44,202 nucleotides of DNA from assembly GCA_964554235.1 (NCBI GenBank), contig CAZKNU010000001.1, forward strand, positions 1 through 44,202. Direction: 5' to 3'. The stretch's first letter is position 1. Every line of letters starts with the position of its first letter. Positions 1-24,850 of this stretch are shown one piece after another. The notes beneath the pieces were generated by a model. That model was not told the DNA's origin and ran no database searches. It saw nothing but the letters and a program-made list of their open reading frames with translations. The stretch comes from an uncultured Methanosarcinales archaeon (GTDB lineage: Archaea > Nanobdellota > Nanobdellia > Woesearchaeales > GW2011-AR9). A program made the translations under genes and the position numbers.

Positions 1-511
1 CAAATTTAGCAAAATCATAGCCAATATTTACCCTAAAATGCTTCTTTATTGTATAATGTCCGCCTTTATTTTTAGAATTGGGATTTATTACGATGCTTTC
101 CTCTGCAGTACCCACCAGTTCGTCTTTCTCAAAAGTGACCTGATATTTCTCCGGATTATACTTGCCCATTAATTCGTTGAAAGCAGTGTTAACCATACTT
201 CCAACGTCCTGAAAACAAGCTTTTTCTCCCTCACGCAGGTAATAAAATGGACACTCATGACCTTTGGAAACTCCGCCCTGCTTAGTTAAGAGAGTTACCG
301 TTTCTTTTCCTACCCATAACGCTAATTGGTCATTCTGTAACAGTTCTTTCTCGCCGGCAAGATAATAATTATTTAAATAATCGGCTTGCCATTCCCCTTT
401 AATTTGTACTCCTGTATCTTTTTCGTAGACAGATAATAAAAAGAAAGCTAAAGCAGCTATAATCGCAAAAATAATCCAATGAAATAATGCTCCTTTTTTT
501 GAATTAATCAT
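1..511 (-). CDS. prepilin-like (class III signal peptide) protein, C-terminal part cut off by window edge
   Basis: Not in the ORF track because it runs off the window. I read every minus-strand codon from ATG (509-511) down to position 2 and found no stop. N-terminus is MINSKKGALFHWIIFAIIAALAFFLLSVY: a basic n-region, KKG, then about 20 hydrophobic residues. Confidence 0.6.
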   Translation of the reverse strand, partial: MINSKKGALFHWIIFAIIAALAFFLLSVYEKDTGVQIKGEWQADYLNNYYLAGEKELLQNDQLALWVGKETVTLLTKQGGVSKGHECPFYYLREGEKACFQDVGSMVNTAFNELMGKYNPEKYQVTFEKDELVGTAEESIVINPNSKNKGGHYTIKKHFRVNIGYDFAKF

Positions 512-535
512 CTTAATTTTATTTACCTATTTCAT

Positions 536-1033
536 TTATTTTTCTCGGCTAAATACAACCGTTATTGATGGAATCTGTTTATTTTCTAAATTAGGTAATT
601 CTAAACTACATTTCTTACCTGACCCAAACACCACATTGCTAAAAGAAAATAAACGGTCTTTTCCCTGGCGGAATTCTGCTGTATTATAAATAGCTACATT
701 TCCTTCCGCTTTCTTTTCTCTAAAATAAGTTCCGGTTTTTTCTTCAAATAGATCTCCCCGGTTAGTATTTACCGCTAGCAAGATTAAATCTTTCATCTGG
801 ATTTTCTGCTCGCCAACCAATGCCGGATAATTTAAGTAGTAAAGCAGCTGTTGTTCGGAATCAAATTGGTCTAAGGTCTCTAAAGAAAGTTCTGTTTTTG
901 CTTCTACTTCGGAATTAAGTACTAATTGAATAAAAAATAAGGCAAAAAATAAGATTAAAACCATAAAGATTAAATCAAAAAAGTCCGGCATGATTCCTTT
1001 TTTTCCGGTGATCAATATTGAATTAATTTTCAT
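536..1033 (-). CDS. prepilin-like N-terminus protein (hypothetical)
   Basis: 165-aa ORF. N-terminus MKINSILITGKKG|IMPDFFDLIFMVLILFFALFFIQLVL. Same strand as, and closely spaced with, its neighbours. Confidence 0.55.
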   Translation of the reverse strand: MKINSILITGKKGIMPDFFDLIFMVLILFFALFFIQLVLNSEVEAKTELSLETLDQFDSEQQLLYYLNYPALVGEQKIQMKDLILLAVNTNRGDLFEEKTGTYFREKKAEGNVAIYNTAEFRQGKDRLFSFSNVVFGSGKKCSLELPNLENKQIPSITVVFSREK

Positions 1034-1099: not shown

Positions 1100-1588
1100 T
1101 TATATTTTAGTCTGTACATAAATAATCATTCGGGTAGGCATGACTTCTCCCCCCGAACGGATAAATACCTCTTTATATAAAGTGAAATCCACCTTATTAA
1201 AAAAATTATTAGTCATCAATATTTTTCCTGCCCCTTCTTTAGTGGGACCAAACCCTTCTAATTCTATTCCAAAATTATAATCTTTATACCCTCGCTCTTT
1301 TTCAGTACGATAACAGCCATCTAATCTCTCTTGAGTAAATTTATTTAAATCAATAGTTCCGGGAAAAATTCTGCCCGTCAATGAATCTTGATAAGTAAAA
1401 CATTCCGGGGTATTTAAGAAACGCAAAGCCAGCAATTCTGCCTTGAGCTCGGGAGGAACTTCTACTAATTTATTTTGGTAACTGGACATAATTAAAGCAA
1501 AAGCTAATACGGCTATAGTAATTACCATTCCCGCAATCATCCAAAAAATGGATTTGGTAACCACATCAAAGATTCCTTGTTTATCCAT
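1100..1588 (-). CDS. prepilin-like / N-terminally anchored hypothetical protein
   Basis: The track starts it at 1600, which is a GTG overlapping the upstream gene. An in-frame ATG at 1586-1588 lies 2 nt after the upstream stop (1591-1593). It gives MDKQG|IFDVVTKSIFWMIAGMVITIAVLAFALI. The motif is weaker (Q-G rather than K-G). Confidence 0.5.
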   Translation of the reverse strand: MDKQGIFDVVTKSIFWMIAGMVITIAVLAFALIMSSYQNKLVEVPPELKAELLALRFLNTPECFTYQDSLTGRIFPGTIDLNKFTQERLDGCYRTEKERGYKDYNFGIELEGFGPTKEGAGKILMTNNFFNKVDFTLYKEVFIRSGGEVMPTRMIIYVQTKI

Positions 1589-1590
1589 GT

Positions 1591-1986
1591 TTAACTGCAC
1601 CTCTGCAAAAGGATTTGCTGGTTTTCTTTACGCAAGCATAATCGGCTTTGTTCTTCCAAGGTTCCAAAAGCAGTATACCCTTTGGGTAAAATTATCTGCC
1701 GAATGACCGTCTTTAATTCCCCTTCACCTTTAATAAATACCCGAATATAATTGGAATTAAGGATTAAGGCATATTTAGAAACATTTCCCGGATATTCTAT
1801 TAAAACTTCTCCGGGAGTGCCTACTAGCACGTCCGCCATCATTTTAATATCTTCGGCCAGATTAATTTTATTTGCGGTTTCCGAGCCAGCATATTTTTGA
1901 GCAAGTTCAAAAGTCATATAACTTACAAAAAAAACTATTAGAATCTCAAAAACCAGCATCAGCACCATCACTGCTTTCTTATTCAT
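1591..1986 (-). CDS. prepilin-like protein (K-K-A class)
   Basis: MNKKA|VMVLMLVFEILIVFFVSYM. Its start overlaps the stop of the upstream gene in an ATGA (1983-1986). Confidence 0.55.
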   Translation of the reverse strand: MNKKAVMVLMLVFEILIVFFVSYMTFELAQKYAGSETANKINLAEDIKMMADVLVGTPGEVLIEYPGNVSKYALILNSNYIRVFIKGEGELKTVIRQIILPKGYTAFGTLEEQSRLCLRKENQQILLQRCS

Positions 1987-2651
1987 TTTATCTGCTGCCC
2001 TTCCTGCGGCCCGATGATTCGTACGGTGTTATCAAGTTTAACTAAATATAATAGGGTTCTTCTGGGCATTTCATAATAGCTTACCACGTACCAGCTGGAT
2101 TTATCGGCCAAATGCCTTTCAATCATAAACCCGCCGGTGCATTTATAAGAATGCACGGCTTCCGCTTTTCCCAGGCTGCAAGATTCTATTTCTAAATTAT
2201 AATTTATATTGGAACAGAGAACAATTTTAGGAATAACCGTTATCGTATCATAACCCGGTTTGCTGAGAGAAGTATCAAATTCTGATTTTCTAAATAAGCA
2301 CAAACAATTTTTGTCGTCGTTACATTGGCTTGGCTTTTGCAAATGGATAGTAAAATCAGTATAAGGCACGCGGGCATCGACTTCCACTAAAACTTCTTTT
2401 TTTCCTTTTTCAAAATAAACCACGGCAGTAGCAGTATCCATAATCAAAAGGGTGCTTTCTCTTGCCCCAATTTCTCCGACCTGGGAAAATTTTTCTAATT
2501 CCTGGACAAAATCAACATAATTGTCCTTGGCTTGAGTACTCGTCCTAAACAGCCGTGCTCCTAAATAACAGGCGGGGACAAAAATAATCAAAGCGAGAAC
2601 AAGTGAAACCAGGAATTTCAGCATAATTGCTTTTTTATTTTTATTGAACAT
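1983..2651 (-). CDS. prepilin-like protein (K-K-A class), Cys-containing globular domain
   Basis: MFNKNKKA|IMLKFLVSLVLALIIFVPA. 222 aa with several Cys in the C-terminal two thirds. Confidence 0.55.
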   Translation of the reverse strand: MFNKNKKAIMLKFLVSLVLALIIFVPACYLGARLFRTSTQAKDNYVDFVQELEKFSQVGEIGARESTLLIMDTATAVVYFEKGKKEVLVEVDARVPYTDFTIHLQKPSQCNDDKNCLCLFRKSEFDTSLSKPGYDTITVIPKIVLCSNINYNLEIESCSLGKAEAVHSYKCTGGFMIERHLADKSSWYVVSYYEMPRRTLLYLVKLDNTVRIIGPQEGQQIK

Positions 2652-2774: not shown

Positions 2775-3650
2775 TTATTTCCTGATCCATTCGCTATCTA
2801 TGCATCCGTAAATTTTATTGCCAACAATGAGCTCCTTGCCTTCATTACCTTTCTTACAACCAAACCAATAGCCGCTTTTACAAATCAAAGAACCATAATT
2901 TGGTTTAGACCTCCACTGCCAGGAGAAAAGATTTTTAGGATCCTGTTCATTATCAGCAGAAAAGTAAGTGTGTTCCTGAATTGCCCCTTCCAGAGAAGCG
3001 GATTTAGTTGCAGAAATAATCGTTTCTTCATCAACTGCATATTGACCACAATCATTTTTATCATACGCATAAGCTAGCGGATAAAGTACCGGAATTCTGG
3101 CATCTTTTTCACTGGCCATAACCCAGCAGCCGGTGGTTATCGGCTGGTAAGAAAATTCATCGTCATCGCAATCGGTTCCTTGTGTAGGACAGTCTAAGCC
3201 CATCCAATGCGGACAAGCAAAATTAATTATTCCGCTGCTTTTTTCACCGCTATCATCATTACCAAAAATTTCCAGAGATTCATAATGCATAAAGGCTTCT
3301 TCACCAACCTTCTCCGCTAATTTTTCATCAATAGCGCTGGTTTTAAGAACCCCACAGCCCGTATCTGAGTTATATTTTTCCCGATCGGCCTGTTTCTGCT
3401 GGCTGGTAAATGTAGCCGGACAGCCATTAGTGTCTATTTCCCCATAAGTACAAGGACAGTCATCAGAAAGGCCTACTACTCCGTCAAAATCAGGATCACC
3501 CACAGTATAATTTCGCTGTGCCCTCAGGATATCACCAAAACTAAATAAATGAGGAAAAAAAATAGCAATGACTGCTAATAACAAAACTAAAGCCAAGATT
3601 ACTGAAATAAGCACTTCCATAACTTGGCTAAGGCCTTTTTTATTTATCAT
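2775..3650 (-). CDS. prepilin-like protein with Cys-rich domain and a thrombospondin-type-3-like Asp-rich loop
   Basis: MINKKG|LSQVMEVLISVILALVLLLAVIAIFF. Also carries DPDFDGVVGLSDDCPC (a DxDxDG-type Ca-binding-like motif) and many Cys. Confidence 0.65.
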   Translation of the reverse strand: MINKKGLSQVMEVLISVILALVLLLAVIAIFFPHLFSFGDILRAQRNYTVGDPDFDGVVGLSDDCPCTYGEIDTNGCPATFTSQQKQADREKYNSDTGCGVLKTSAIDEKLAEKVGEEAFMHYESLEIFGNDDSGEKSSGIINFACPHWMGLDCPTQGTDCDDDEFSYQPITTGCWVMASEKDARIPVLYPLAYAYDKNDCGQYAVDEETIISATKSASLEGAIQEHTYFSADNEQDPKNLFSWQWRSKPNYGSLICKSGYWFGCKKGNEGKELIVGNKIYGCIDSEWIRK

Positions 3651-3809: not shown

Positions 3810-4802
3810 CTATTCCCCGGCAATATCTCCCGAACCGCACATTTCCTGCCCTACTTCTAAAAAGCCAACATAAATCGAACTGACATCTCTTTCTGCATAC
3901 ATATCTCCCATTAAATTCATATATCCCGCTGTACCTAAATAGATGCCTGCCGCACCAGTAGCAACAATTGGCACTAAACCGAGGGCTGCTTTTCCAACAA
4001 TCGCTTTTCCAGGAAGTTCTCCCGGAACGATCTTTTGCTTGCTTTCTGCATAACTTTTGTATTGCATTGCTCCTCCAACAATGGCTGGTAGCAAATAAAT
4101 CCCCAGCGGAAAAACTAAAACCGCGCCTCCACCCATCTGCAGTACTCCTTTCCAAAAAGTATCTCTTTCCTTATTTTTAGGCATCATGGAAACAGTGTAA
4201 GCGGCGCGGGGAAAGATTTCCGGAGCAGTTAGCACTACTCTTCCCGGACCACCATATCCTTGAATGTAATCCAAGTAAGTCATATTTACTTTAGAATATT
4301 TTTTCAGGGCCATAAAATCAAACAGCTCTTTGGAAGAAATCGGTCCACCTTCAATTTCTTCCTGATCAACCAATAAAGTATAACAATTAAAACATTGGTT
4401 TTCATAACCATCAAAACCTAGTACAGAAGGTAAAACATCTAAATCCCCCGAACTTAAAATCTCTTCATATCTTCCTTCATTAAACATCCACCAGCATCTG
4501 GCCGTAGCTTCAGCTATTTGCCGCAGGATTTGCTGCCTATTCCCGGTGATTTTTTTATCAATGGTCTTACAGAGAGCCGGAACCATTTTTAATTCCGCTT
4601 CAACTAAGCTGCTTTTAAGGTGGAAGGCACTTTTGGCTCTTAAAGCAATGCTGTTCTGGCAGAGCACTTCTGCTTCTACATCGCTGGATTTAGACATAAA
4701 TCTTAACAATACTCCGGAAATTAATACAAAAGCAATTAAAGTAATCATCATTCCGATAATAAAGCTGGCCGTTAAAGCTTTTTTTCCGGTTAAAGTGATC
4801 AT
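3810..4802 (-). CDS. membrane protein with prepilin-like N-terminus plus two Gly-rich C-terminal hydrophobic segments
   Basis: MITLTGKKA|LTASFIIGMMITLIAFVLISGVLL at the N-terminus. Later hydrophobic stretches are GGGAVLVFPLGIYLLPAIVGGAM and AALGLVPIVATGAAGIYLGTAGY. The longest ORF at this position; the 116-aa, 70-aa and 90-aa ORFs that overlap it are rejected. Confidence 0.6.
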   Translation of the reverse strand: MITLTGKKALTASFIIGMMITLIAFVLISGVLLRFMSKSSDVEAEVLCQNSIALRAKSAFHLKSSLVEAELKMVPALCKTIDKKITGNRQQILRQIAEATARCWWMFNEGRYEEILSSGDLDVLPSVLGFDGYENQCFNCYTLLVDQEEIEGGPISSKELFDFMALKKYSKVNMTYLDYIQGYGGPGRVVLTAPEIFPRAAYTVSMMPKNKERDTFWKGVLQMGGGAVLVFPLGIYLLPAIVGGAMQYKSYAESKQKIVPGELPGKAIVGKAALGLVPIVATGAAGIYLGTAGYMNLMGDMYAERDVSSIYVGFLEVGQEMCGSGDIAGE

Positions 4803-4874: not shown

Positions 4875-5651
4875 TTAACTGCATAATTTCAATTTGCCTT
4901 GTTTAATTAAATTGGGAATGGAATTAACTTCTCCGTCGGTAAACCATTCATTGGCAATGCCACTTTCACCATAATTAAAAACCCAGTTAGTAGGGAAAAA
5001 ACAAATATGCTCTCCATCAGGGGTAAACAACCAGCCCCCGTCTTCAAAGTTATCTCCTAAACCGATATCTAAAAAAGCAATACTGTTTCCTTTCCTTTTA
5101 CCGCTTTTTGACTGGTAGTAAATGGTAAGCGCATCAACCGGCTGAAAATAAGGATATACTAATTGCTTTTCCTCTTCGATAAAGAAATTAAAAAAATGTT
5201 CTGCTACCCTTCCTCTTCCTGCAATTACGCAAGGCTTCATTCCTGGAAACTCCGTTCTTAATTCCGTTAGCATTTGTTTTCCGCCCGCTCCCCCGCCGAC
5301 AGTAAGGACGGTTTTATTTCCTTCCGAGTTAATCAGGATTGAAGTGCCTTCTTCTTTGCCCAACTCAGAAAATCCGCCGTAATTGGCAAAACAGTTCTCT
5401 TTGCCTTTTCCTAACATGGTAAAGATGGTTTTGCTTAAACTTAAAATCTGGGCTTGGTGGATTTCAGGAATGGAAATTTCTGCACCTAATTCTTCCGCCC
5501 CCATCCCCATTTCGGGCAAAAAGCGTTTAAGGTCTAAAATGGTGGCTTTTAATTCTTCCCAAGCCCCGCTCTCCCCAAAAAAAATGACTAAAACTACCAG
5601 CAAGAAAACAATCGGAAGTACATAAAAAATTATTTTTGATGCTACACCCAT
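4875..5651 (-). CDS. N-terminally membrane-anchored hypothetical protein
   Basis: MGVASKIIFYVLPIVFLLVVLVIFFGESG. It has a hydrophobic N-terminus but no K-K-G/A motif. 258 aa. Confidence 0.55.
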   Translation of the reverse strand: MGVASKIIFYVLPIVFLLVVLVIFFGESGAWEELKATILDLKRFLPEMGMGAEELGAEISIPEIHQAQILSLSKTIFTMLGKGKENCFANYGGFSELGKEEGTSILINSEGNKTVLTVGGGAGGKQMLTELRTEFPGMKPCVIAGRGRVAEHFFNFFIEEEKQLVYPYFQPVDALTIYYQSKSGKRKGNSIAFLDIGLGDNFEDGGWLFTPDGEHICFFPTNWVFNYGESGIANEWFTDGEVNSIPNLIKQGKLKLCS

Positions 5652-5673: not shown

Positions 5674-5847
5674 CTAAAATAAGTTTAAAAATCTGTCCAG
5701 CAGCAGGTTGCCTTGTTTGCTTAGCAAAAGCCAGAGGGCACCAGCAGCAATCAACAGCACCAGTAAACCAACCAACGTAATAATCAAAGTTAAGGCCTCG
5801 TCCCCTTTTTTGCCTAATGATAAACCCTTTAGTAATTCTATTTTCAT
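5674..5847 (-). CDS. 57-aa mini prepilin-like protein (below ORF-track size cutoff)
   Basis: Hand-translated codon by codon: MKIELLKGLSLGKKG|DEALTLIITLVGLLVLLIAAGALWLLLSKQGNLLLDRFLNLF, stop TAG at 5674-5676. Its ATG overlaps the upstream mini-gene stop in an ATGA (5844-5847). It competes with the 73-aa track ORF 5642-5863 in another frame. Confidence 0.4.
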   Translation of the reverse strand: MKIELLKGLSLGKKGDEALTLIITLVGLLVLLIAAGALWLLLSKQGNLLLDRFLNLF

Positions 5848-5972
5848 AATCCAAATAACCCAAATTTCTTTTTTAATCCCATCATCACGGCAATAAAAAT
5901 TAAGATGCCTAATAAGATAATTACAATTAATTCTACCACACTTAGGTCAGCAGCTTTTTTATTTAATTTCAT
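5844..5972 (-). CDS. 42-aa mini prepilin-like protein (below ORF-track size cutoff)
   Basis: Hand-translated codon by codon: MKLNKKA|ADLSVVELIVIILLGILIFIAVMMGLKKKFGLFGL, stop TGA at 5844-5846. It has the same K-K-A plus hydrophobic helix organisation as its neighbours. Confidence 0.4.
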   Translation of the reverse strand: MKLNKKAADLSVVELIVIILLGILIFIAVMMGLKKKFGLFGL

Positions 5973-6288: not shown

Positions 6289-6290
6289 AC

Positions 6291-9739: not shown

Positions 9740-9746
9740 GATTAAA

Positions 9747-16048: not shown

Positions 16049-16142
16049 TGTTTTTAGAGAGAAAGAAGTCTCGAAAAGTTAAAATTTAAGTAAAACCAAA
16101 AAGAGAGTTATCAGAAGGCCACCATTAAAGTTTTATCGAGCT

Positions 16143-16755: not shown

Positions 16756-19416
16756 TTAAGCATCACCCACGCATTTTCCTTGCTGACAGGTTCCTTTAAA
16801 ATTACCATTAAAATTAGCATCACAAAGACTGCCGTCATCAAAGCCTTTCTCTTTAGGTCCGGAAATGCAGCTGCAATGGAAAGGGAAAGAAGGATCAGGT
16901 AAGTTAGTAATTTCATTTTTAAGTGCTAAAGCATTCAAATTAGTGGTATCAAAACTTCCTAACCGGGTTGGATCTCCAAGGTAAACAACGGCATTAGGAG
17001 CAGTGCAAAATTTCTGGCAACCCATACCTCCATAACACCACCCCTTAATTGGTTTTTTGTCAACAATTTTGTCGACGAAACGGAAGGCTGGCCCATCTTG
17101 GCAGTTACTATTAATGCCCTCGCTACCACTATTACAACCATTTTTGCCAGGAAGACCACACCATAACTGGTCTTGATATAATTGGTTTTCAAAGTCTCCA
17201 TTACACATATTTCCTCGCTTTCCATCACAATACCTTCTTTGTTCTTCCCAAACTAAACCCTTTTTTAAAGCAGTATACCCCATATATTCATTTAATTCGT
17301 TTTTGTATAACTTACTTTTGACTTGACCATAACAGCCCGGTTCAGGATTAGTAAAACAAGGCTCGTCTTCTTTAGTTTTGAATTCAAAGTCAGCATTGCA
17401 GCAACTATGGGTAGCTAAGAAAGGGTTACTGTTTGGTTCAAATTCACCTTTCCAGACATAATTGCCATTTTCGTCTTCGGCAAATTTATACTCGTGATAT
17501 TTTTCCTGCTGAGTTTTAGCACCAGGGTTATAAGCAAAAGGGCGAGTTAGATTAATATGAGGGATGCATTGTTTAACTAACACCGTAGCAGTTTTAGACT
17601 TTCCTAATAAATCAGCAACACAGTAATTCTGGGAAAATTTTAATTCTAAAATTCCCATGCCCAAATCTTGGAAGGGAGATAGTTCAAATTTTTTAAGGAC
17701 TTCGGACCATTTTTTAAGTTCCGTTTCAGAATAACTTTTCATACTACAAGTATAACGGTTCTCCTCCCCTTGCTGAGAAGGAAACGCATAACAATTCTCT
17801 TTAGCAGATTTGTCGTTATAACCTAATCCCACTACGAGATTGACTTTATCCTCGGTAGTATAGGTAAAAGTAACCCCGCCCTTGCCAGTGGTAAGAGAAT
17901 TTTCTGGCAGGGTAACCCGTACAAACACCGGATCCTCCGTAGAGAGGATATAATAATCTTTAGCCATCTTCTGCATAGCTTCTGAATAAGGCACTAAACC
18001 CGTACCTAAATCAATTTTATAATCCATATCTAAAGAAAAATCTACAACCATGGGGCGGTCAACTAAAATTCTTACATTCTGCCAGTCGCTTAATCCGTGC
18101 TCATCAACAGCAATCGCTTTAAGATTAAAAAGACCTTTAAGTAACGGAGTAATCAAATAATTTGGCCCAAGTTTATTACCAAGGTCGCTTTTAAATTCAT
18201 ATTTAACTACTTCGTCTTCATCCGGGTCTAAAGCAAATAAAGTTGTATTGATTTTTCCCAACTTAGGATCGTCTTTGATGACTAAATAATCGTAACCGGC
18301 CTGTAGACATTCTTTTCTTTTGACATAATCTAAAGCCGGCGGCCGATTTTGCCGCACAAAACGATATAAATATTTTTCCGGTTGATCTAAGATGCTCAGG
18401 GACTTAAAGACGAATAAATCGTCACCTTTATCTAAAGGAGTTTTCTCCATTTCTACGCCTAAAGAAGAATATAAATCGAAGTATAAAGCACGGCTGCATA
18501 AAAAATAACTTTTAAACTGGGATACTGCCGGAGAACAGCCGCGAACGGAAATTTCACTCCCATAAGTAAAGGCTGGGCTTTCGATGACTTCTTCAGCATA
18601 ATTAAAATCTACAAATTGCAAATCCATCCCCAAAGGGAAATCTACAGCTGCTTTTAACAATTCTCCAAATTTGCTGGGGTAAAAAAAATCAAATGTGGAT
18701 AAGTGAAAAAATTCTTCCTGACCGACGCTAAATTTTAAAGGGTAATTAATATTAACATCAATTCCATCCGGAAAAATCTGTAATTTTAAATCCATTCCGT
18801 CTGATTCAACGTCTAAGCTGCTGGAAACCTTATTTTTAACGAAAGTTTCTACACACCACTGCGCTTTTTCGGTTAAGAACCTTCTTAAGTCAGCTTCAAT
18901 CGTGCTTTTTTGAATTTCTAATTCCCCAAATTTTAATTTAGTGTTAGGATATTCGTAATGACAGAATTCTTCAGGAGTAGAATCATTATTACAGGGATAA
19001 GCTTGAGGAAAAAGTGGATAAAGTTTATTGGTGATGGCATAAAAGATTCTTTCTTCATCTGTTCCAGGAGGATAACTTTTTCCGGTAACTCCTTCCTCAA
19101 ACTTTATTCTTCCTCCGGGCTGATCATCCCAGAGCCGGCCTTGTTTGCCGATTAGCACCAAGCCTTGCTCTAATTCATCGGCCAAACAATCTTCCACAAA
19201 AATACGTAAAGCTTCTTTTTTGAAAAGTTTAGAAATGGACTCTTCCTGTGCTTCTTTTAATTGCCTTTCCTTAAACTGCCCGGTAATGGCAATTACCATC
19301 AGAAAAGCAAACAGGATTAGAATACCCATAATCATAAAAATAGTTATTTGTGCTGTTTTCTTGCGGTTAAAATTAGCCTGCTCACTACTAGCTCTATTCT
19401 TCCTCTTTTTGTACAT
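16756..19416 (-). CDS. 886-aa N-terminally anchored (possibly class III signal) Cys-rich surface protein
   Basis: ...FNRKKTA|QITIFMIMGILILFAFLMVIAITG. A possible cadherin/Ig-like segment (ALDPDEDEVVKYEF...AIAVDEHGLSDWQNVRILVDRP). The C-terminal about 250 aa are very Cys-rich. Confidence 0.8.
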   Translation of the reverse strand: MYKKRKNRASSEQANFNRKKTAQITIFMIMGILILFAFLMVIAITGQFKERQLKEAQEESISKLFKKEALRIFVEDCLADELEQGLVLIGKQGRLWDDQPGGRIKFEEGVTGKSYPPGTDEERIFYAITNKLYPLFPQAYPCNNDSTPEEFCHYEYPNTKLKFGELEIQKSTIEADLRRFLTEKAQWCVETFVKNKVSSSLDVESDGMDLKLQIFPDGIDVNINYPLKFSVGQEEFFHLSTFDFFYPSKFGELLKAAVDFPLGMDLQFVDFNYAEEVIESPAFTYGSEISVRGCSPAVSQFKSYFLCSRALYFDLYSSLGVEMEKTPLDKGDDLFVFKSLSILDQPEKYLYRFVRQNRPPALDYVKRKECLQAGYDYLVIKDDPKLGKINTTLFALDPDEDEVVKYEFKSDLGNKLGPNYLITPLLKGLFNLKAIAVDEHGLSDWQNVRILVDRPMVVDFSLDMDYKIDLGTGLVPYSEAMQKMAKDYYILSTEDPVFVRVTLPENSLTTGKGGVTFTYTTEDKVNLVVGLGYNDKSAKENCYAFPSQQGEENRYTCSMKSYSETELKKWSEVLKKFELSPFQDLGMGILELKFSQNYCVADLLGKSKTATVLVKQCIPHINLTRPFAYNPGAKTQQEKYHEYKFAEDENGNYVWKGEFEPNSNPFLATHSCCNADFEFKTKEDEPCFTNPEPGCYGQVKSKLYKNELNEYMGYTALKKGLVWEEQRRYCDGKRGNMCNGDFENQLYQDQLWCGLPGKNGCNSGSEGINSNCQDGPAFRFVDKIVDKKPIKGWCYGGMGCQKFCTAPNAVVYLGDPTRLGSFDTTNLNALALKNEITNLPDPSFPFHCSCISGPKEKGFDDGSLCDANFNGNFKGTCQQGKCVGDA

Positions 19417-19510: not shown

Positions 19511-22500
19511 TTAACTAACTCTTAATTTACCGGTCAACTGCGGCCAGAAGAAATCCAAACCCGCAACTACTTCTACTTTTTGCTTGGAACCATCTACCGA
19601 ACAAGTTACTTTTTCCATTCCAGATAACTCTTCTAATAGTTCAGATTCTGCTTCTAAAGGTAATTTAATATTGTTGATATAATCACACACCGGAGTTTTA
19701 AAATTATCATATTCAGCGATTAAAGCTTGTTTTCCGGGTAAAACTTCTTTTAAAGCTCTTACTTTCTTTTCTCCCTGTTTTAAAATATAAATGTCCCGGA
19801 AATTTTTAGCTTTGGTCAGGAAACTTTTTTCATCAGATAGTTTGCTTTTTAGACCGAATAAATCATTAAACCATTGGGTTATTTTTTGAGTGATTTTCTT
19901 CCCTAATCCCGGCTCCAGATTTAAGCCTTCCTTGGCATAAATTATTGCATTTAAATCTTGGGAATAAAATAAGTCAGCATTAGGCAAGTTTAACCCGCTT
20001 AGGTCGCAAGGAGTAAATTTACCGGGTAGTGCACTTTTACAGATCTCTTTTATTTTGGCCGGAGAAATTTCTGCCGGAATTAAAGTGTTCAAGAAAGATT
20101 TTTCATTATCAATCTTCCGATTTAAAGTGGTGGCAAAGGCTAACTTAGTTTGTTTGCCGTCTTTATATTTCAGGACACAGAGGTTATTCACACAGGTATT
20201 TTCTTGATCTTGCACTAAATTACCTGTTCCGGTAATACTTTTAAAAGTATTATAACAAGTAGAAAGTAATTGTGGTTTCTGGGCCAGCTCTCCCATTTTT
20301 TGTTTGCTGGCATCTTTTAGTTTAACCTCACCACCAAGATAATCTTCTTCGTCTTTAAATTCCAATAACACTTCAGCATAAGGAGAGCAATACAAAATAT
20401 AATCATCATCCTCGGCAACTTCAACTAATTTTGAAGCTACAAATTTAGTCCGGCTGGTCCAATCACCATTGTCGCAGTAATGGTCTAAAATATACTGGGC
20501 CGAGTCGATACAGATAGGATATTTTCCTTCGTAAAAACTGCCGGCAGTATTTTCATCCTTGCCGGTAGGAAGAACAAAACACTGCTCTTTCTTCTTGCAG
20601 AAGCCCCAGTTCTTTTCATTCCAATCTAATTTAACATCACCTTTAACCCATTTTCCAGCAATACAGCGGTAGTTTCGTTCCTCGTTAATGTATTCCGTTA
20701 AGGAGGTGGATTCAGTCATCGGCCGAACACAGGCATAACCATTCCAGCAGAAATCTTGCGGACAACAGGCCTGTCCGGAACGGGCATTAAAGTTTTCTAA
20801 TAAAGGCTGGGGCTTATAGGTAGAGAAATCAGTTAGTTTAAATTCATCTTTTAATTGCAAGACCGGTTTTTCAATCTTACAATAGCCGGTAAATTCTAAC
20901 ACTAAATAAGATGCATCCCCGGTTTCTATATTGGTCAAATCTTCCGCTTCACCGGTAGCTTTACCGTCTTTGTCAAACAGGAAGCCTTTAACATTTTTAC
21001 AAGCTTGAGTTTGGGAGAAATGTAATTTGCTGTTTTTAGGCACGGCAATGCGCTCTGAACGCAATTTTTCGTTGTCGGCAGTTAAAGATAAAACTCGGGT
21101 TTCTTGGTCAACATAATTATGTTCTTCTTTTTTAACCGGTTCATTATTTTTAAAAATATCCCAATGAGGGATTTGTCCTTGAGCACCATAATACTCAAAT
21201 TCAGGATTGGAAATGAAATTGCGGGCTGGAAGAACCGAAGTAGAAAAGTTTCTTTTTTTAGCTGGAAAATTTTCTGCATCTAAAACTAATTCTGTTCGTT
21301 CATAAAATTGAGCAAGCGTTTCATCTTCATCAGGGACACTCATCGCTTCTTTATCATAACCAACATAATTAATATCTGCATCGCTCCAAGAATTAATCGT
21401 AGTGAAGCGTTCTTGATTAAATTCTCTTTCGACACTATAAGAGCAGAACCAGTTGTCAACAACAGAACAATAAGGCATATTCTTGTATTCTTTAAAACCG
21501 AATAAATTTTCCGGTGTTTTTTCCAGGAAAGAGGCTGCCTGGCAGCCGTAAAAGCCCGGTTCTGGTTTTGCATCTACTCCCTTATTATAAAATAAGATTT
21601 GCTGGGCTACTTTTTGTACTTGTATATTCCCAAACAGATTAAATATATTATTCTGTGGCGTTATCAAAGTTTGGATTGTTAAATCATTTTCGTCTGCAGC
21701 AATAAAAAATAATTCATATAATTCTGGATTAGGATTAATAATTTTATACTTCTTTTCGCCGGGAGGAGGAAAACTGTCTGGTAAAGGGTATGTACATTTA
21801 TCCTTACCAATGCAGGAATAAGTTTGTTTAACAGAAGTTTTCTTGATTACTGGTTCTTCCGTTTTCAGTGGGAAATGCACGCCCTCTTTAAGTTTAGCGA
21901 CGACGGCTAAAGGGTGGTTCCAGACTTCTTGGGCTTCGCCTTTTTCAATATACCAAGATCCGGGAGGAACTAAAATAGCTTCATTATCGTCCAAGACTGA
22001 TTCTCCTTTCCCTAACAATTTGCCGACGGGCTCGTTGGTAAGCAAATCATAAACGACTAATTCTGCATACCCAGTAAATTCTTGATCCGCAGATTCCATC
22101 GCTTTAAACCACAAGACCGTTTTTCCGGGAAGGGCATTGAATTTAGAAAAACTAAAAGAACCTAATTGTTGAAAAGTGCTGCCTGGTTGTAAAATAGTTG
22201 AGCTGTAATAGCCTATAGAAGAACCACCCGGCTTGGGGAAATCATAATTAACCTTCAACGTAACTCCTGGCATTTTAATATTCTTAGTCGTATATTCTAC
22301 GGCTTTACCCCAATATTCAACTTCAAATTCCACATTCATGGCCGTAGCCCCGGAAGCAATCACTTCTGAATTCCAGCAGCCAAAGCGATTAAAAGTAGTA
22401 GGAGTTTCGTCTGTGCCTTTGGTAACTTCTTGTTCCGGACTGCTGCCAGCATAATACTCATGCGGATCGTTTCCGCAACAATTAGCTGTTCCTCTTTCAC

Positions 22501-24850
22501 TCTGGTCGATTTCTTCATCCGTGCCTAACCAGGCCTTCTTCCCATATAGTTGAGTACATAAAGTTTCGCCGGTAAGTTTAGTTTGTCCAGAATCATAATC
22601 TGCATCAGTAATCCAATTATTAACCTCTTTAGAGTTTATTCCTGAACAAAGTAAAGGTTCTTCATTTTCTTTGCTTAAATAAATATTTCTAATACCTAAA
22701 AGAAATTTTTCACCAGTGTCAAAATTAATTTGCTTAATATTCTTTAAATTTTTAGGTAGAGGAACACGCACATGCATCCATTGCTGTTCCTCACTGGAAA
22801 ACAAAGGGTTATTGATGACGTAACTTAACACATTCTGTTGAAAAAAGATTTGGTCTTCTGGACCACGAATAGTTAGTTCAACATCTAAAGGTAAGTCTTT
22901 GTCTTCAATCTTCGCAGGAGTACCGGCTTCATCACTAACAAAGCGAACCATAAAATTCAAATAATCGTAACCGGAAAAATCTAACAGCGTACCTTTGCCA
23001 TAGAAAGTGTCATACCAACGGGCTAGAATTTCAACGGTGGGCTCGTATCTGTCTTTGGTAAAGTCTTCTATTCCTTCTGCAGTTTCTTTTCTCAGCGGCA
23101 GCGTAAATAATCCTTCTCCTTCCAGCCGGCCTTTAAGGTTATCATTTCCGCGCCAATCGTCTTTCCCAGTACATTCTGCCCAGCTGTAATGATCTCCTTC
23201 TTTATAACAGTAGTAATGGTTGCTTCTTATGGCTAAATCTTCTACATTTTCTCCAGTATCCGGAGCAGGAATGGTCCTGGTTTTAGCATCATAAGTGGTA
23301 GCATTACAAATGTACCAATCATAGTTATTGGAAACCACATCAAAAGCAGGTTTGCTCGGTTTTTTAAGAGTAAGAATACTATATTTAGCATTGTCAAAAG
23401 CATTTAACCAGCACCAATCACCGGGACAGCGAACTGAAGTGCCCTGATTATCAGGATTAGAATTTGGTTCCGGAGGAGGAGCAATAGTTTTGTCCCATTT
23501 TAAGTCTTGATCCATCCCCGCTAATTCTTCATCTTTGTTTAAGCAGATAAACTGCCCGCCTTTATCATTTCCTTTGCCTTCTCTTTTAACCCCTAAATCT
23601 TCTATGCCATTAAAGCCGCAGCAGTAACCTTCCTCTTCTCCGGTTTGAATCCAGGAGAATTGTTGATTGTAGATATTTTTTTGTGTTGCTGGGCAAATAA
23701 TATCTTCACAATCTTTTTTTATTTTCTTTCCTTCTTCATCAACTTCGCATAGAATATCTTCAGTACAGGTTGCATCCCCTGTTGTTTGCATACAAGCCGC
23801 TTTGTTGTTGTGGCAGTTGTCAGGAGTATCACCAATTAAACCTGGTCCGATTAAAGAACTTTTACTATGAGTTCCATAAGTAAGACAGTCATTATTTAAT
23901 TCATCGCCGCAAACTTCCGGTGCGCCGGGATTGATGCAGATAGCGCATTTGGAATTATCTGGATATTTACAATTAGAATCGCCAGTTTCTAAATCTACGG
24001 CCTGCTGCGGGCAAAGGTTGGGATTAGTAGCATCAGCTAATAAATTTTTATTGGGGTCTTTAGGATCGCCATTAGCACAATCACCCATGTCATCAGTGTA
24101 ACCGTCTTTGTCGTAATCGTAGCCGAGAAGAGGTTGCCAGACCGAAACATATACTCCTGAACCTTTGGATGTTTCTACTTTAGTGCAATTATAGGCTTTG
24201 TCATTGGCCCAGGTTAGCGTTCCTTGCTGCTCTACAGTAAGATCACATTTATGCCAGAGTTCATCGTCGGAACAGATTAAAGCGTTTGTAGAATAAAACC
24301 AATAGTTTAAAACACAATCATCAGCATCATTGTCACTACCACAGCCAGCCGGAGCCATCCACCCTATATTACCCCCGCCTTCGTTTACTTTGTTTGATCT
24401 CGGATAAGTTTTGGTTATTGAATCATAAATCTTTCCTGGAGAATTGATTACCCAAGCAAAGTCATCATTGTCTGTACCCCCATCAGCTTCAATAACTAAA
24501 AACCAGCAACCAGAACCTAAACCTGTCTTTGAAGGTACATTGCCTAATGCAGTTATTTGTGATAAATCACATTCACCATCTCCAACTAGTGCTGTTTTTG
24601 TATTAGGAGCAGAAAATTTAGTTTCATCAAGCCATTCTTCACGATAATCTGCTTTTGGATCTCCGGCTAATTGATCAGCAAGATCGTTATCACAATCATT
24701 ATCTCCTGCCTGACCAACTCCATGCTCATCATAACGACCTCCAATACTTACCCATTTCCCAACATTTATCTCCATCGCCAATCCAGAACTACTTAAAACT
24801 ACTAAAAATAGAAGTAAAACTACTAGTAACATCCCTCTTTTTTTATTCAT
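19511..24850 (-). CDS. giant (1779 aa) secreted Cys-rich protein
   Basis: Uninterrupted 5.3-kb ORF. Signal is MNKKRGMLLVVLLLFLVVLSSSGLAME. It has Asp-rich Ca-binding-like loops (DNDCDNDLAD, GYDYDKDGYTDDMGDC). CINPGAPEVCGDELNNDC matches the MopE-type putative metal-binding motif as I remember it. No C-terminal TM segment. Confidence 0.85.
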   Translation of the reverse strand: MNKKRGMLLVVLLLFLVVLSSSGLAMEINVGKWVSIGGRYDEHGVGQAGDNDCDNDLADQLAGDPKADYREEWLDETKFSAPNTKTALVGDGECDLSQITALGNVPSKTGLGSGCWFLVIEADGGTDNDDFAWVINSPGKIYDSITKTYPRSNKVNEGGGNIGWMAPAGCGSDNDADDCVLNYWFYSTNALICSDDELWHKCDLTVEQQGTLTWANDKAYNCTKVETSKGSGVYVSVWQPLLGYDYDKDGYTDDMGDCANGDPKDPNKNLLADATNPNLCPQQAVDLETGDSNCKYPDNSKCAICINPGAPEVCGDELNNDCLTYGTHSKSSLIGPGLIGDTPDNCHNNKAACMQTTGDATCTEDILCEVDEEGKKIKKDCEDIICPATQKNIYNQQFSWIQTGEEEGYCCGFNGIEDLGVKREGKGNDKGGQFICLNKDEELAGMDQDLKWDKTIAPPPEPNSNPDNQGTSVRCPGDWCWLNAFDNAKYSILTLKKPSKPAFDVVSNNYDWYICNATTYDAKTRTIPAPDTGENVEDLAIRSNHYYCYKEGDHYSWAECTGKDDWRGNDNLKGRLEGEGLFTLPLRKETAEGIEDFTKDRYEPTVEILARWYDTFYGKGTLLDFSGYDYLNFMVRFVSDEAGTPAKIEDKDLPLDVELTIRGPEDQIFFQQNVLSYVINNPLFSSEEQQWMHVRVPLPKNLKNIKQINFDTGEKFLLGIRNIYLSKENEEPLLCSGINSKEVNNWITDADYDSGQTKLTGETLCTQLYGKKAWLGTDEEIDQSERGTANCCGNDPHEYYAGSSPEQEVTKGTDETPTTFNRFGCWNSEVIASGATAMNVEFEVEYWGKAVEYTTKNIKMPGVTLKVNYDFPKPGGSSIGYYSSTILQPGSTFQQLGSFSFSKFNALPGKTVLWFKAMESADQEFTGYAELVVYDLLTNEPVGKLLGKGESVLDDNEAILVPPGSWYIEKGEAQEVWNHPLAVVAKLKEGVHFPLKTEEPVIKKTSVKQTYSCIGKDKCTYPLPDSFPPPGEKKYKIINPNPELYELFFIAADENDLTIQTLITPQNNIFNLFGNIQVQKVAQQILFYNKGVDAKPEPGFYGCQAASFLEKTPENLFGFKEYKNMPYCSVVDNWFCSYSVEREFNQERFTTINSWSDADINYVGYDKEAMSVPDEDETLAQFYERTELVLDAENFPAKKRNFSTSVLPARNFISNPEFEYYGAQGQIPHWDIFKNNEPVKKEEHNYVDQETRVLSLTADNEKLRSERIAVPKNSKLHFSQTQACKNVKGFLFDKDGKATGEAEDLTNIETGDASYLVLEFTGYCKIEKPVLQLKDEFKLTDFSTYKPQPLLENFNARSGQACCPQDFCWNGYACVRPMTESTSLTEYINEERNYRCIAGKWVKGDVKLDWNEKNWGFCKKKEQCFVLPTGKDENTAGSFYEGKYPICIDSAQYILDHYCDNGDWTSRTKFVASKLVEVAEDDDYILYCSPYAEVLLEFKDEEDYLGGEVKLKDASKQKMGELAQKPQLLSTCYNTFKSITGTGNLVQDQENTCVNNLCVLKYKDGKQTKLAFATTLNRKIDNEKSFLNTLIPAEISPAKIKEICKSALPGKFTPCDLSGLNLPNADLFYSQDLNAIIYAKEGLNLEPGLGKKITQKITQWFNDLFGLKSKLSDEKSFLTKAKNFRDIYILKQGEKKVRALKEVLPGKQALIAEYDNFKTPVCDYINNIKLPLEAESELLEELSGMEKVTCSVDGSKQKVEVVAGLDFFWPQLTGKLRVS

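What the first reader, a model, noticed from the sequence alone, without database searches (positions are those of the whole stretch)
1..24850. 25-kb single-strand island: pilin-like gene array plus three giant Cys-rich surface proteins, with no visible assembly machinery
Seen in sequence:
- All 20 genes from the window edge to 24850 are on the minus strand.
- Gaps are short, or starts and stops overlap in an ATGA (1983-1986, 5844-5847, 7415-7418).
- The content is very uniform: about 14-16 proteins with prepilin-type N-termini, then 2088-, 886- and 1779-aa secreted proteins.
- The giants carry adhesin-type modules: CarboxypepD_reg-like, FN3-like, DxTAP-bounded Ig-like modules, thrombospondin-type-3-like Ca loops and a MopE-like Cys motif.
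- None of the translated products shows a secretion-ATPase Walker A/B pair, a FlaJ/PilC-like 7-9 TM protein, or a prepilin peptidase.

Inference: this is a dedicated surface filament plus giant adhesin module. In a DPANN-type episymbiont it could mediate host-cell contact. Its motor and peptidase would be encoded elsewhere, or it may use an unrecognised assembly route. I cannot match this combination and gene order to any named archaeal pilus, archaellum, Ups, Aap or bindosome locus.
Basis: partly seen in the sequence, partly recalled or inferred. Interest (0 to 1): 0.85.

Follow-up and report, generated by a model that had tools for sequence, protein, structure and literature searches.

The report
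Conserved Woesearchaeal pilin-like surface operon
A 25-kb run of 20 same-strand genes in an uncultured DPANN (Woesearchaeota-type) archaeon encodes about 17 proteins with type-IV-pilin-style N-termini plus three giant adhesin-like proteins. The whole array keeps the same gene order in more than 70 related genomes, so it is the best current candidate for this lineage's cell-attachment apparatus, although its motor and peptidase lie elsewhere.

Summary
From 1 to 24850 there are 20 minus-strand genes, a 21-gene-position block once the conserved flanks are counted. Every product has exactly one N-terminal hydrophobic helix. Sixteen carry [KR][GA] directly before that helix, and the 886-aa protein has KKTA|Q.

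Across orthologues from more than 60 species:
- The -1 residue is G or A in at least 94% of sequences in 13 gene families.
- Gln at +1 is 87-100% conserved in five families.
- Leaders vary in length.
- In g10-g15 and g18 the helix is more conserved than the globular part.

These are features of class III (prepilin) signals of the Methanococcus EppA/Epd type.

AlphaFold models show a 53-residue N-terminal helix plus a new globular fold for the 380-aa protein, and a 72-residue helix plus cadherin/Ig-like tandem domains for the 886-aa protein. No Pfam, NCBIfam, PHROG or PDB family recognises any small subunit.

It is not an island. It is a core operon near oriC, with conserved neighbours on both sides and strict colinearity.

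No ATPase, platform protein or peptidase lies within about 10 kb in any relative. Published surveys report flaI/J/K in Woesearchaeota.

Best reading: an Epd-like type-IV-filament or pseudopilus adhesion apparatus whose machinery is encoded elsewhere. It is a new variant of a known kind. Filament formation and host contact are inferred, not shown.

The parts
1..511 (-). g0, the last gene of the array. It is cut by the window edge and is 175 aa in full. N-terminus KKG|ALFHWIIFAIIAAL.
   Evidence: L001 shows the full gene, then a convergent HTH_3+CBS gene. One search shows the motif. Orthologues were found in 38 loci.
536..1033 (-). g1, 165 aa, pilin-like (KKG|IMPDFFDL...).
   Evidence: -1 is G65/A35; +3 and +4 are Asp.
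1100..1600 (-). g2, 166 aa (162 aa as called in L001). One N-terminal helix; the motif is weak (DKQG|IF).
   Evidence: It has no clear [KR][GA] site.
1591..1986 (-). g3, 131 aa, pilin-like (NKKA|VMVL). Remote paralogue of g4.
   Evidence: hhalign g3-g4 gives 94.9%.
1983..2651 (-). g4, 222 aa, pilin-like (NKKA|IMLKF), 7 Cys.
2775..3650 (-). g5, 291 aa, pilin-like (KKG|LSQVMEV), 12 Cys, with one Ca-loop-like DPDFDG motif. Paralogue of g7.
   Evidence: hhalign g5-g7 gives 99.7% over 248 columns.
3810..4802 (-). g6, 330 aa, pilin-like (GKKA|LTASF), with a marginal second hydrophobic segment near residue 220.
4875..5651 (-). g7, 258 aa. It has an N-terminal helix but no [KR][GA] site. Paralogue of g5.
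5674..5847 (-). g8, 57 aa, a tiny pilin-like protein (GKKG|DEALTLIITLVG) with no globular domain.
   Evidence: Similarly sized genes are called at this position in relatives.
5844..5972 (-). g9, 42 aa, a tiny pilin-like protein (NKKA|ADLSVVELIVIILLG).
   Evidence: Genes of 40-52 aa are called here in L005-L007.
6019..6294 (-). g10, about 89 aa, small Cys-rich pilin-like protein (KKA|DANMWWIIIGAVIAL). Paralogue of g11.
   Evidence: -1 is A58/G42; helix conservation 0.79. hhalign g10-g11 gives 98.3%.
6291..6644 (-). g11, 117 aa, candidate major subunit: KKG|QGLSLNVIIVAALALIVLVVL followed by a small 4-Cys head.
   Evidence: Alignment A3. -1 is G in 98% and +1 is Q in 87%. It has the most conserved helix, 0.86. 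It has its own upstream gap with a TATA-like box and a GAGGTG ribosome-binding site. At least 936 homologue clusters were found.
6732..6740 (-). ACATTTATA, a BRE/TATA-like box in the 189-nt gap upstream of g11.
   Evidence: The motif has 4 matches, all on the minus strand, against 0.9 expected.
6834..7418 (-). g12, 194 aa, pilin-like (RKG|QMEIIGLVIIV).
   Evidence: +1 Q 100%, +3 E 100%, +6 G 100%; helix conservation 0.85.
7415..7906 (-). g13, 163 aa, pilin-like (RKG|QIKISETIAVLFIFF).
   Evidence: Alignment A2.: +1 Q 98%, +6 E 100%. No PDB sequence match.
7995..9137 (-). g14, 380 aa, pilin-like (KKG|QIELTFNWIY). Predicted 53-residue N-terminal helix, then a beta domain and a C-terminal helical bundle.
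   Evidence: 189 homologues. Alignment A1 shows an invariant Q8 and a variable leader. AF2 pLDDT is 88. No Foldseek PDB hit at E <= 1e-3. 1683 representative clusters.
9194..9739 (-). g15, 181 aa, pilin-like (KKG|LGVGEVFVFIVAAL; Q/E at +5).
9747..16013 (-). g16, a 2088-aa giant. It has a KKRG + h-region signal, a Cys-rich N-terminal part, 2x CarboxypepD_reg, fn3/Ig-like modules, 4 TSP3-like Ca loops, a C-terminal TM (1911-1929) and a Lys-rich cytoplasmic tail of about 160 aa.
   Evidence: 53 of 54 orthologues keep the C-terminal TM, and an SPase-I-like site precedes a conserved GCYVYP.
16043..16051 (-). ACATTTATA, a BRE/TATA-like box about 30 nt upstream of the g16 start.
16143..16724 (-). g17, 193 aa. 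It has an N-terminal TM and a very basic tail predicted to be cytoplasmic. Its sequence is poorly conserved, but a gene of 277-355 aa occupies this slot in relatives.
16756..19416 (-). g18, 886 aa, a modular pilin-like adhesin (..KKTA|QITIFMIMGILIL). It has a 72-residue helix, tandem beta-sandwich domains and a Cys-rich C-terminal domain.
   Evidence: 181 homologues. Alignment A4.: +1 Q 100%, -1 A64/G36. AF2 pLDDT 85. Foldseek hits to protocadherin, Fat4, SiiE and alpha-2-macroglobulin.
19511..24850 (-). g19, a 1779-aa secreted Cys-rich giant (KKRG|MLLVVLLLFLVVLSSSGLA). It is present in some relatives and absent in others.
   Evidence: No Pfam hit. Orthologues of 1751-1774 aa sit upstream of g18 in L074 and a JGI contig; L074's orthologue has a weak MopE hit. 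It is absent in L031 and L075.
24883..24891 (-). ACATTTATA, a BRE/TATA-like box about 35 nt upstream of the g19 start. This is the likely first promoter of the block.

Best explanation
The block is a lineage-specific, core-genome operon set of Woesearchaeota-type DPANN archaea. It encodes the extracellular parts of a type-IV-filament-class surface apparatus.

Proposed mechanism:
1. About 17 products are made with class III (prepilin-type) signal peptides: a short variable basic leader, then [KR][KR][GA], then a cleavage point, often followed by Gln.
2. A PibD/FlaK/EppA-type peptidase encoded elsewhere cuts after the G/A.
3. The retained, highly conserved hydrophobic N-terminal helices of a core set (g10-g15, g18) bundle into a short pilus or pseudopilus.
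4. The bundle is built mainly of the small g11 subunit, possibly with g10, g8 and g9. The larger, individually conserved subunits form a tip or base complex.
5. The pilin-like 886-aa protein (g18) displays cadherin/Ig-like domains on this structure.
6. The 2088-aa protein (g16) is anchored in the membrane by its C-terminal TM and carries Ca-binding and Ig-like modules. The 1779-aa protein (g19) is secreted.
7. Extrusion would use a FlaI/TadA-type ATPase and a FlaJ/TadC-type platform encoded at another locus, as in Methanococcus and Haloferax.
8. The likely role is adhesion to surfaces or partner cells.

What is shown: the gene content, the motif and helix conservation, the synteny, the predicted folds and the absence of linked machinery.

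What is inferred: cleavage, filament assembly, which subunit is the major one, and the adhesive or host-contact role.
For: 1. Signal anatomy. 16 of 20 products have [KR][GA] directly before a single N-terminal hydrophobic helix, and g18 has KKTA|Q.

2. Comparative evidence (unless stated).
- In 13 orthogroups the -1 column is G or A in at least 94% of sequences, and -2/-3 are K or R.
- +1 is Gln in 100% (g12, g14, g18), 98% (g13) and 87% (g11).
- Leaders vary from about 4 to about 45 residues while the site stays fixed.

3. Helix conservation. In g10-g15 and g18 the helix is more conserved (0.73-0.86) than the globular part (0.49-0.63). The leader is the least conserved in g10-g15 (0.22-0.43; 0.67 in g18).

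4. Signal type. The motif matches what is described for EppA substrates: a leader of 5-13 aa ending in Gly, with +1 Gln (PMC3875500).

5. Predicted folds. g14 has a helix at residues 9-61 followed by a beta domain (pLDDT 88). g18 has a helix at 21-92 followed by tandem beta-sandwiches that hit cadherin repeats and the SiiE adhesin.

6. Shared N-termini. Orthogroups resemble each other mainly in their N-terminal 30-60 residues (hhalign), as pilin paralogues do.

7. Synteny. Order is strictly colinear in 66 species genomes plus metagenome contigs.

8. Precedent for unlinked machinery, and its reported presence in the lineage.
- M. maripaludis pilus genes lie in at least four loci.
- Standalone pilins are common in archaea.
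- flaI/J/K are reported in most Woesearchaeota MAGs.
- TFF system 1 is reported in DPANN.

9. Expression signals. g11 has its own TATA-like box and a strong GAGGTG ribosome-binding site.
Against: - No curated pilin or class-III-signal model (Pfam, NCBIfam) hits any subunit. No homologue has a precomputed Pfam hit.
- PDB sequence searches with g11 and g13 profiles found nothing. A Foldseek search of the g14 model also found no pilin structure.
- No peptidase, ATPase or platform gene lies within about 10 kb in any of more than 70 loci. I could not check the rest of any genome that carries the block.
- One preprint states that type IV pilus components are missing in DPANN genomes (10.1101/2020.05.14.094862).
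- Seventeen different pilin-like genes kept one-to-one across an order, at 40-55% identity, is far more numerous and more conserved than known pilus loci. This could point to a fixed hetero-oligomeric envelope complex rather than a polymer.
- Glu at +5, typical of EppA substrates, is not kept. Glu sits at +3 or +6 instead.
- g2, g7 and g17 lack the site.
- g16 and g19 look more like Sec substrates.
Confidence: 0.6

Rival explanations
1. A fixed cell-envelope complex rather than a filament. In this reading the N-terminal helices are membrane anchors, either uncleaved signal anchors or class III-processed helices that stay in the membrane as in a bindosome. They hold about 17 different ectodomains in a stoichiometric scaffold. 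That scaffold supports or anchors the giant g16 (an S-layer-like protein with a C-terminal TM) together with g18 and g19. It would be the lineage's basic envelope or contact-site architecture.
For: - Each subunit is kept one-to-one, with a conserved globular domain, across the order.
- The block sits at a core chromosomal position near oriC with conserved neighbours.
- No machinery is linked to it.
- g16 has a Sec-like signal, a C-terminal TM and a cytoplasmic tail in 53 of 54 orthologues. This is the layout Makarova et al. call 'S-layer-like' in Thermoproteales T4P loci.
- g17 and the g16 tail give the only cytoplasmic parts.
- S-layer genes are among the most expressed Woesearchaeota genes.
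Against: - A plain anchor does not explain the strict G/A at -1, the K/R at -2/-3 and the invariant Gln at +1 beneath leaders of variable length.
- It also does not explain helices that are more conserved than the ectodomains.
- Tiny 42-117-aa subunits with little or no ectodomain (g8-g11) fit polymerising pilins better than scaffold parts.
Confidence: 0.25
2. A pilin-like apparatus with an unrecognised assembly route. In this reading the block needs no dedicated secretion ATPase or platform. It either self-assembles after insertion and cleavage, or it borrows the archaellum's FlaI/FlaJ/FlaK.
For: - Machinery is absent within about 10 kb in every locus examined.
- The only machinery reported for Woesearchaeota in the papers read is annotated as archaellar: flaB/H/I/J/K.
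- One group states that T4P components are missing in DPANN.
Against: - Unlinked pilin and machinery loci are normal in archaea.
- KEGG 'fla' labels do not separate archaellum ATPases from pilus ATPases.
- TFF system 1 and subsystem 4A loci are reported in DPANN and Nanoarchaeota.
- No genome-wide absence was shown here.
Confidence: 0.12
3. A horizontally acquired genomic island or integrated virus or mobile element that encodes structural proteins.
For: A long co-directional block of unannotated genes is typical of proviruses.
Against: - G+C content is similar to the flanks.
- The block has the same flanking housekeeping genes in distant relatives and is colinear in 66 species.
- No PHROG match reaches significance; the best is E = 0.004 to an unknown family.
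- There is no integrase, no tRNA and no Rfam element.
Confidence: 0.02

Closest known systems
Epd pilus of Methanococcus maripaludis (archaeal TFF 'system 1', Makarova clade 1)
   Same: - Many pilin-like genes with class III signals that end in Gly and have Gln at +1.
- Very small subunits alongside much larger ones.
- Large adhesin-like proteins in the locus.
- Pilin genes separate from the ATPase and the two platform genes.
- System 1 is reported in DPANN.
   Different: - There is no EppA peptidase gene in the block.
- No DUF361/Class_IIIsignal Pfam hit and no DUF2341 PilY-like domain.
- Glu at +5 is not conserved.
- About 17 pilin-like genes, against about 4-10 in Methanococcus.
- All families are specific to Woesearchaeota/Nanoarchaeota.
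Thermoproteales type IV pilus loci (Makarova subclade 4G, Pyrobaculum-Thermoproteus)
   Same: The plan of two large proteins plus many small Cys-rich putative minor pilins is the same. One large protein has a C-terminal TM and is 'S-layer-like'; the other has a signal peptide and is a putative adhesin.
   Different: Those loci contain the ATPase and platform genes, whereas this one does not. There is no detectable sequence relationship, and the phylum is different.
Modular type IV pilins and tip adhesins of bacteria (for example Streptococcus sanguinis PilB; PilY1-type adhesins)
   Same: g18 combines a pilin-type N-terminus and long helix with grafted adhesion modules. The concept is described in PMC8179133, which I saw only as a listed abstract.
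   Different: The domain content differs (cadherin/Ig-like tandem plus a Cys-rich domain). There is no homology, and the leader type is archaeal.
Sulfolobus bindosome (class III-signal substrate-binding proteins with Bas proteins)
   Same: Functional ectodomains are held at the surface by class III-type N-termini, possibly without a long fibre.
   Different: No substrate-binding-protein domains are present. There is no BasE/F ATPase or platform nearby. The subunit set is much larger.
Module 98 of lineage-specific protein families shared by Woesearchaeota and Pacearchaeota (Castelle et al. 2021, PMC8204110)
   Same: It consists of unannotated families, mostly membrane-bound or extracellular, that are widespread in these lineages and absent elsewhere. 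The block's families plausibly belong to it or to a sister module.
   Different: The paper does not mention pili or pilins (0 occurrences), and the passages I read describe neither an operon nor a class III signal. Membership of the module was not checked, because the supplement was not read.

Membership tests
Archaeal type IV pilin-like proteins (class III signal peptide substrates) | A short basic leader ending in G/A (or S), directly followed by about 20 hydrophobic residues. | tested here: met
   16 of 20 products, plus g18, have it. G/A at -1 is at least 94% conserved in 13 orthogroups, with K/R at -2/-3. Leader length is variable.
Archaeal type IV pilin-like proteins (class III signal peptide substrates) | A long N-terminal alpha-helix carrying a globular (usually beta-rich) head. 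| tested here: met
   These are AF2 predictions only. g14 has a helix at 9-61 followed by a beta domain. g18 has a helix at 21-92 followed by beta-sandwiches.
Archaeal type IV pilin-like proteins (class III signal peptide substrates) | A match to curated pilin or class-III-signal sequence models (Pfam, NCBIfam). | tested here: not met
   No such hit at E <= 1 for any subunit. No precomputed Pfam hit among homologues.
Archaeal type IV pilin-like proteins (class III signal peptide substrates) | Cleavage by a PibD/FlaK/EppA-type peptidase. | not testable with these tools
   No peptidase gene is in the window or in any flank. flaK is reported in Woesearchaeota MAGs only from the literature.
Type IV filament system (TFF superfamily) | A secretion ATPase (TadA/FlaI/PilB family) plus a polytopic platform protein (TadC/FlaJ/PilC) in the system. 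| tested here: not met
   Not met at the locus. No ORF of at least 250 aa carries a GxxGxGK[ST] Walker A motif, apart from Cdc6, an ABC protein and two inserted AAA-type genes. No polytopic protein was found in 73+ loci. The window's flanks are housekeeping genes. Presence elsewhere in the genome could not be tested.
Epd pilus / TFF system 1 | Gln at +1 and Glu at +5 of the mature pilin, and a DUF361-type N-terminus. | tested here: inconclusive
   Gln at +1 is met in g11-g14 and g18. Glu is at +3 or +6 rather than +5, and g15 has Q/E at +5. There is no DUF361 hit.
Epd pilus / TFF system 1 | A dedicated EppA peptidase and PilY-like DUF2341 large proteins in the pilin operon. | tested here: not met
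   No polytopic protein is in the block. The giants have CarboxypepD_reg and fn3-like domains only, or no Pfam hit at all.
Archaellum | Archaellin (Arch_flagellin) subunits with FlaF/G/H/I/J. | tested here: not met
   No such Pfam hits.
Bindosome | A class III signal on solute-binding proteins. | tested here: not met
   No SBP domains in any product.
Archaeal S-layer protein (for g16) | An abundant secreted glycoprotein with a C-terminal membrane anchor that forms a 2-D lattice. | tested here: inconclusive
   The Sec-like signal and C-terminal TM are conserved. No S-layer Pfam domain is present. Lattice formation and abundance are not testable here.

The most novel reading that the evidence does not exclude
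Woesearchaeales build a previously undescribed surface organelle. It would be a stoichiometric pseudopilus or stalk made of about 17 different, individually conserved class-III-signal subunits. It would carry giant cadherin/Ig-like and Ca-binding adhesins. It would be assembled either without a dedicated secretion ATPase or by borrowing the archaellum's FlaI/FlaJ/FlaK. This would be the lineage's host-contact machine.
Probability: 0.2. Interest if true: 0.85.

Novelty: new variant of a known kind. Interest (0 to 1): 0.62.

Why it matters
Woesearchaeota-type DPANN archaea are abundant in groundwater, sediments and lakes. They are uncultured and are presumed to live attached to partner cells, but no attachment apparatus has been identified for them. 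One widely cited view is that type IV pilus components are missing from DPANN genomes.

This block gives a concrete, conserved and testable candidate:
- a defined set of genes;
- a predicted cleavage site (G/A|Q) that proteomics can check;
- a candidate major subunit (g11) for antibodies or for fitting into cryo-ET density;
- three giant adhesins as candidates for partner recognition.

It also adds at least 15 unannotated protein families to the class-III-signal repertoire. Current pilin models (Pfam, NCBIfam) miss an entire order's pilin-like proteins.

Tried and rejected
Searches that led nowhere:
- Pfam, NCBIfam and PHROGs scans of the small subunits gave only sub-threshold noise.
- PDB sequence searches with profiles of g11 and g13 found nothing meaningful.
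- Foldseek of the g14 model against the PDB gave no hit at E <= 1e-3, so its globular part has no recognised fold.
No small subunit was therefore modelled.
- The profile search of 1.84 billion representatives showed a large family (1683 clusters). The ten weaker hits from the top-150 list that I looked up carry only Woesearchaeota labels, no labels, or probably mis-binned labels.

Hunt for linked machinery:
- I scanned all ORFs of at least 250 aa in 73 loci for Walker A motifs. I also read the Pfam-annotated gene tables around homologues on long contigs, and a divergent clade from a metagenome scan.
- Only Cdc6, an ABC protein and two inserted AAA-type genes turned up.
- I could not query the remainder of any genome that carries the block.

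Literature:
- In six full-text searches and the passages I read, no paper described this operon.

Rejected readings:
- Provirus or mobile island (see rivals).
- Archaellum and bindosome membership (see membership tests).
- tRNA or ncRNA content in the window: none found.

Full report
**What is in the sequence**

The window is archaeal and about 35% G+C. Its right half encodes TBP, MCM, Cdc6/Orc1, both PolD subunits, aIF2-beta, TFE, an NcsA-like PP-loop protein, ThiF, a ThiI-like THUMP protein, RNase P p30 and a SpoIIM-like membrane protein.

From the left edge to 24850 there are 20 consecutive minus-strand genes. Two are tiny (57 and 42 aa). The edge gene is complete at 175 aa in another copy of the same contig.

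Every product has exactly one N-terminal hydrophobic helix. Only the 2088-aa protein has an additional C-terminal TM segment. None is polytopic and none is cytoplasmic.

**Are the N-termini prepilin-type?**

Sixteen of the 20 products have [KR][GA] immediately before the helix. The 886-aa protein has KKTA|Q. I could not run SignalP or FlaFind, so I used comparative evidence.

- The 380-aa protein (g14) has 189 homologues, all from Nanoarchaeota/Woesearchaeota MAGs, at 40-60% identity over full length.
- In their alignment the leader varies from about 4 to about 45 residues. It always ends in [KR]-x-[GA], followed by an invariant Gln.
- I collected orthologues of every gene from 66 species-representative genomes and counted columns.
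- In 13 orthogroups the -1 residue is G or A in at least 94% of sequences, and -2/-3 are K or R.
- +1 is Gln in 100% of g12, g14 and g18, in 98% of g13 and in 87% of g11.
- In g10-g15 and g18 the hydrophobic helix is more conserved (0.73-0.86 majority frequency) than the globular remainder (0.49-0.63). The leader is the least conserved part in g10-g15 (0.22-0.43); in g18 it scores 0.67.

A plain membrane anchor explains none of this. It is the pattern of class III signal peptides, and specifically of the kind described for EppA substrates in Methanococcus maripaludis: a leader of 5-13 aa ending in Gly, with Gln at +1 (PMC3875500). Glu at +5 is not kept. Glu sits at +3 or +6 instead.

Three products (g2, g7, g17) lack the site. 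The two largest (g16, g19) have KKRG, then a short h-region, then an SPase-I-like site before a conserved mature end (GCYVYP in g16). They are more likely Sec substrates.

**Folds**

- The AlphaFold2 model of g14 (pLDDT 88) has a 53-residue N-terminal helix (residues 9-61), then a beta-rich domain and a C-terminal helical bundle. Foldseek finds nothing in the PDB at E <= 1e-3.
- The model of the 886-aa g18 (pLDDT 85) has a 72-residue helix followed by tandem beta-sandwich domains. Its best PDB matches are protocadherin and Fat4 cadherin repeats, alpha-2-macroglobulin MG domains and the SiiE giant adhesin. It therefore looks like a modular pilin-type adhesin.
- The 2088-aa g16 has two solid CarboxypepD_reg domains, borderline fn3/Ig-like hits and four thrombospondin-type-3-like Ca loops. 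It also has a C-terminal TM with a basic cytoplasmic tail, kept in 53 of 54 orthologues.
- No Pfam, NCBIfam or PHROG model and no PDB sequence recognises any small subunit.
- Profile-profile comparison shows that the families resemble one another mainly in the N-terminal 30-60 residues. There are a few adjacent paralogue pairs: g10/g11, g3/g4, g12/g13 and g5/g7.

**Not an island but a core operon**

The order g18-(g17)-g16-g15-g14-g13-g12-g11-g10-(g9, g8)-g7-g6-(g5)-g4-g3-g2-(g1)-g0 is colinear in essentially every one of 66 species genomes. It is also colinear in marine metagenome contigs of up to 0.92 Mb. g19 is present in some lineages and absent in others.

The neighbours are conserved too. 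Upstream lie MCM, TBP, the ThiI-like gene, the NcsA-like gene and RNase P p30; in one lineage PolD and aIF2-beta take that place. Downstream lies an RPA-like OB-fold gene.

The block lies about 10 kb from a 1.2-kb, 26-28% G+C repeat-bearing spacer in front of cdc6, which is a likely replication origin. G+C content does not set the block apart. There is no integrase, tRNA or viral signature.

**Transcription signals**

The 9-mer ACATTTATA occurs four times in the window, always on the minus strand, against 0.9 expected. Three copies sit in the gaps upstream of g19, g16 and g11 (sequence read for g11 and g19). This suggests at least three promoters.

g11 also has the best ribosome-binding site of the array, GAGGTG, and the most conserved helix. 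It has a small 4-Cys head. I therefore propose it as the main polymerising subunit. This is inference.

**Assembly machinery**

None is present in the window. None lies within about 10 kb of the block in any of more than 70 loci. The only Walker-A ORFs of at least 250 aa are Cdc6, an ABC protein and two inserted AAA-type genes (gene tables). I could not search the rest of any genome that carries the block.

The literature is divided:
- Two Woesearchaeota surveys report flaI, flaJ and flaK. One of them also reports flaB and flaH, and finds these genes in most of its MAGs (PMC11606122 and PMC5994134).
- A 2026 census places TFF system 1 and subsystem 4A in DPANN and Nanoarchaeota.
- A groundwater study states that type IV pilus components are missing in DPANN.

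Unlinked pilin loci are normal in archaea. M. maripaludis has at least four pilus loci, with the ATPase and two platform genes apart from the pilin operon. Haloferax pilins are not co-transcribed with their ATPase.

**Interpretation**

The best-supported reading (about 0.6) is an Epd-like member of the type-IV-filament class. A set of class III-signal subunits is processed by a peptidase encoded elsewhere and assembled by an ATPase and platform encoded elsewhere. They form a pilus or pseudopilus that displays or cooperates with three giant adhesins.

The main rival (about 0.25) is a fixed, non-polymeric envelope complex anchored by these helices, with g16 as an S-layer-like component. It is favoured by the unusual number (about 17) and one-to-one conservation of the subunits and by the core chromosomal position. 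The cleavage-site conservation and the tiny subunits count against it.

An assembly route without a dedicated ATPase, or one using archaellum parts, stays open at about 0.1-0.2. A mobile or viral origin is effectively excluded.

**Novelty**

In six full-text searches and the passages I read, no paper describes this operon. The closest is Castelle et al. 2021, who list a module of 51 unannotated, mostly membrane or extracellular families shared by Woesearchaeota and Pacearchaeota. That paper does not mention pili or pilins (0 occurrences), and the passages I read describe neither an operon nor a class III signal.

I rate the finding a new variant of a known kind. The signal type and the general plan (many small Cys-containing pilin-like proteins plus two or three large surface proteins) have precedents in Methanococcus clade 1 and Thermoproteales clade 4G loci. 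The families, the size of the subunit set, the strict synteny and the complete separation from machinery are particular to this lineage.

Noticed in passing
window 33687-34864: A 1.2-kb non-coding spacer with 26-28% G+C lies directly upstream of cdc6/orc1 (34865-36067). It holds several direct and inverted AT-rich repeats and is a likely replication origin. The pilin-like block lies about 10 kb from it.
   Followed up: partly
window 24883-24891, 19786-19794, 16043-16051, 6732-6740 (all minus strand): The 9-mer ACATTTATA occurs 4 times, always on the minus strand, against 0.9 expected (1 of 100 shuffles reaches 4). Three copies sit 30-90 nt upstream of g19, g16 and g11 and look like BRE/TATA promoter boxes. 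The fourth lies inside the 3' part of g19, about 370 nt before g18.
   Followed up: partly
window 25124-25546 (minus strand): A 140-aa protein with 10 Cys and a lipobox-like N-terminus (LAIAAGC) sits between the block and RNase P p30. It has no Pfam hit and no orthologue in any of the 73 related loci.
   Followed up: partly
window 26475-29168: A tRNA-thiolation-type trio is encoded here: an NcsA-like PP-loop protein, a ThiF/MoeB-like E1, and a THUMP + ThiI-ferredoxin-like protein with no PP-loop hit. The NcsA-like and ThiI-like genes keep their position next to the block in distant relatives (L074 and a JGI contig).
   Followed up: no
window 37807-41394; L075 1860-6836: The PolD large subunit is 1195 aa here. 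In a relative (JAIYRH010000017.1) it is 1658 aa and carries intein and LAGLIDADG hits, so an intein is present or absent depending on the lineage.
   Followed up: no
window 43379-44131 (plus strand): A 250-aa ORF at the right edge has no Pfam hit. It was not examined further.
   Followed up: no
loci L011, L015, L017-L020, L023-L026 and others; P0402; P0386: Many public records that carry this Woesearchaeota-type operon are titled 'uncultured Methanosarcinales archaeon'. Single homologues are labelled Candidatus Staskawiczbacteria or candidate division KSB1. These are probably taxonomic mislabels or mis-binned contigs.
   Followed up: no
L020 12182-13453 (minus strand); L024 3121-4278 (minus strand): In two relatives an opposite-strand AAA/ATPase-type gene (423 and 385 aa, with a Walker A motif) is inserted inside the otherwise colinear array, between the g12 and g11 positions. 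It may be a mobile or defence insertion.
   Followed up: no
window 2775-3650 and 4875-5651: g5 and g7 are clear paralogues in their globular parts (hhalign 99.7% over 248 columns), although g7 has lost the [KR][GA] site. In relatives the genes at these two positions vary widely in length (about 100-700 aa).
   Followed up: partly
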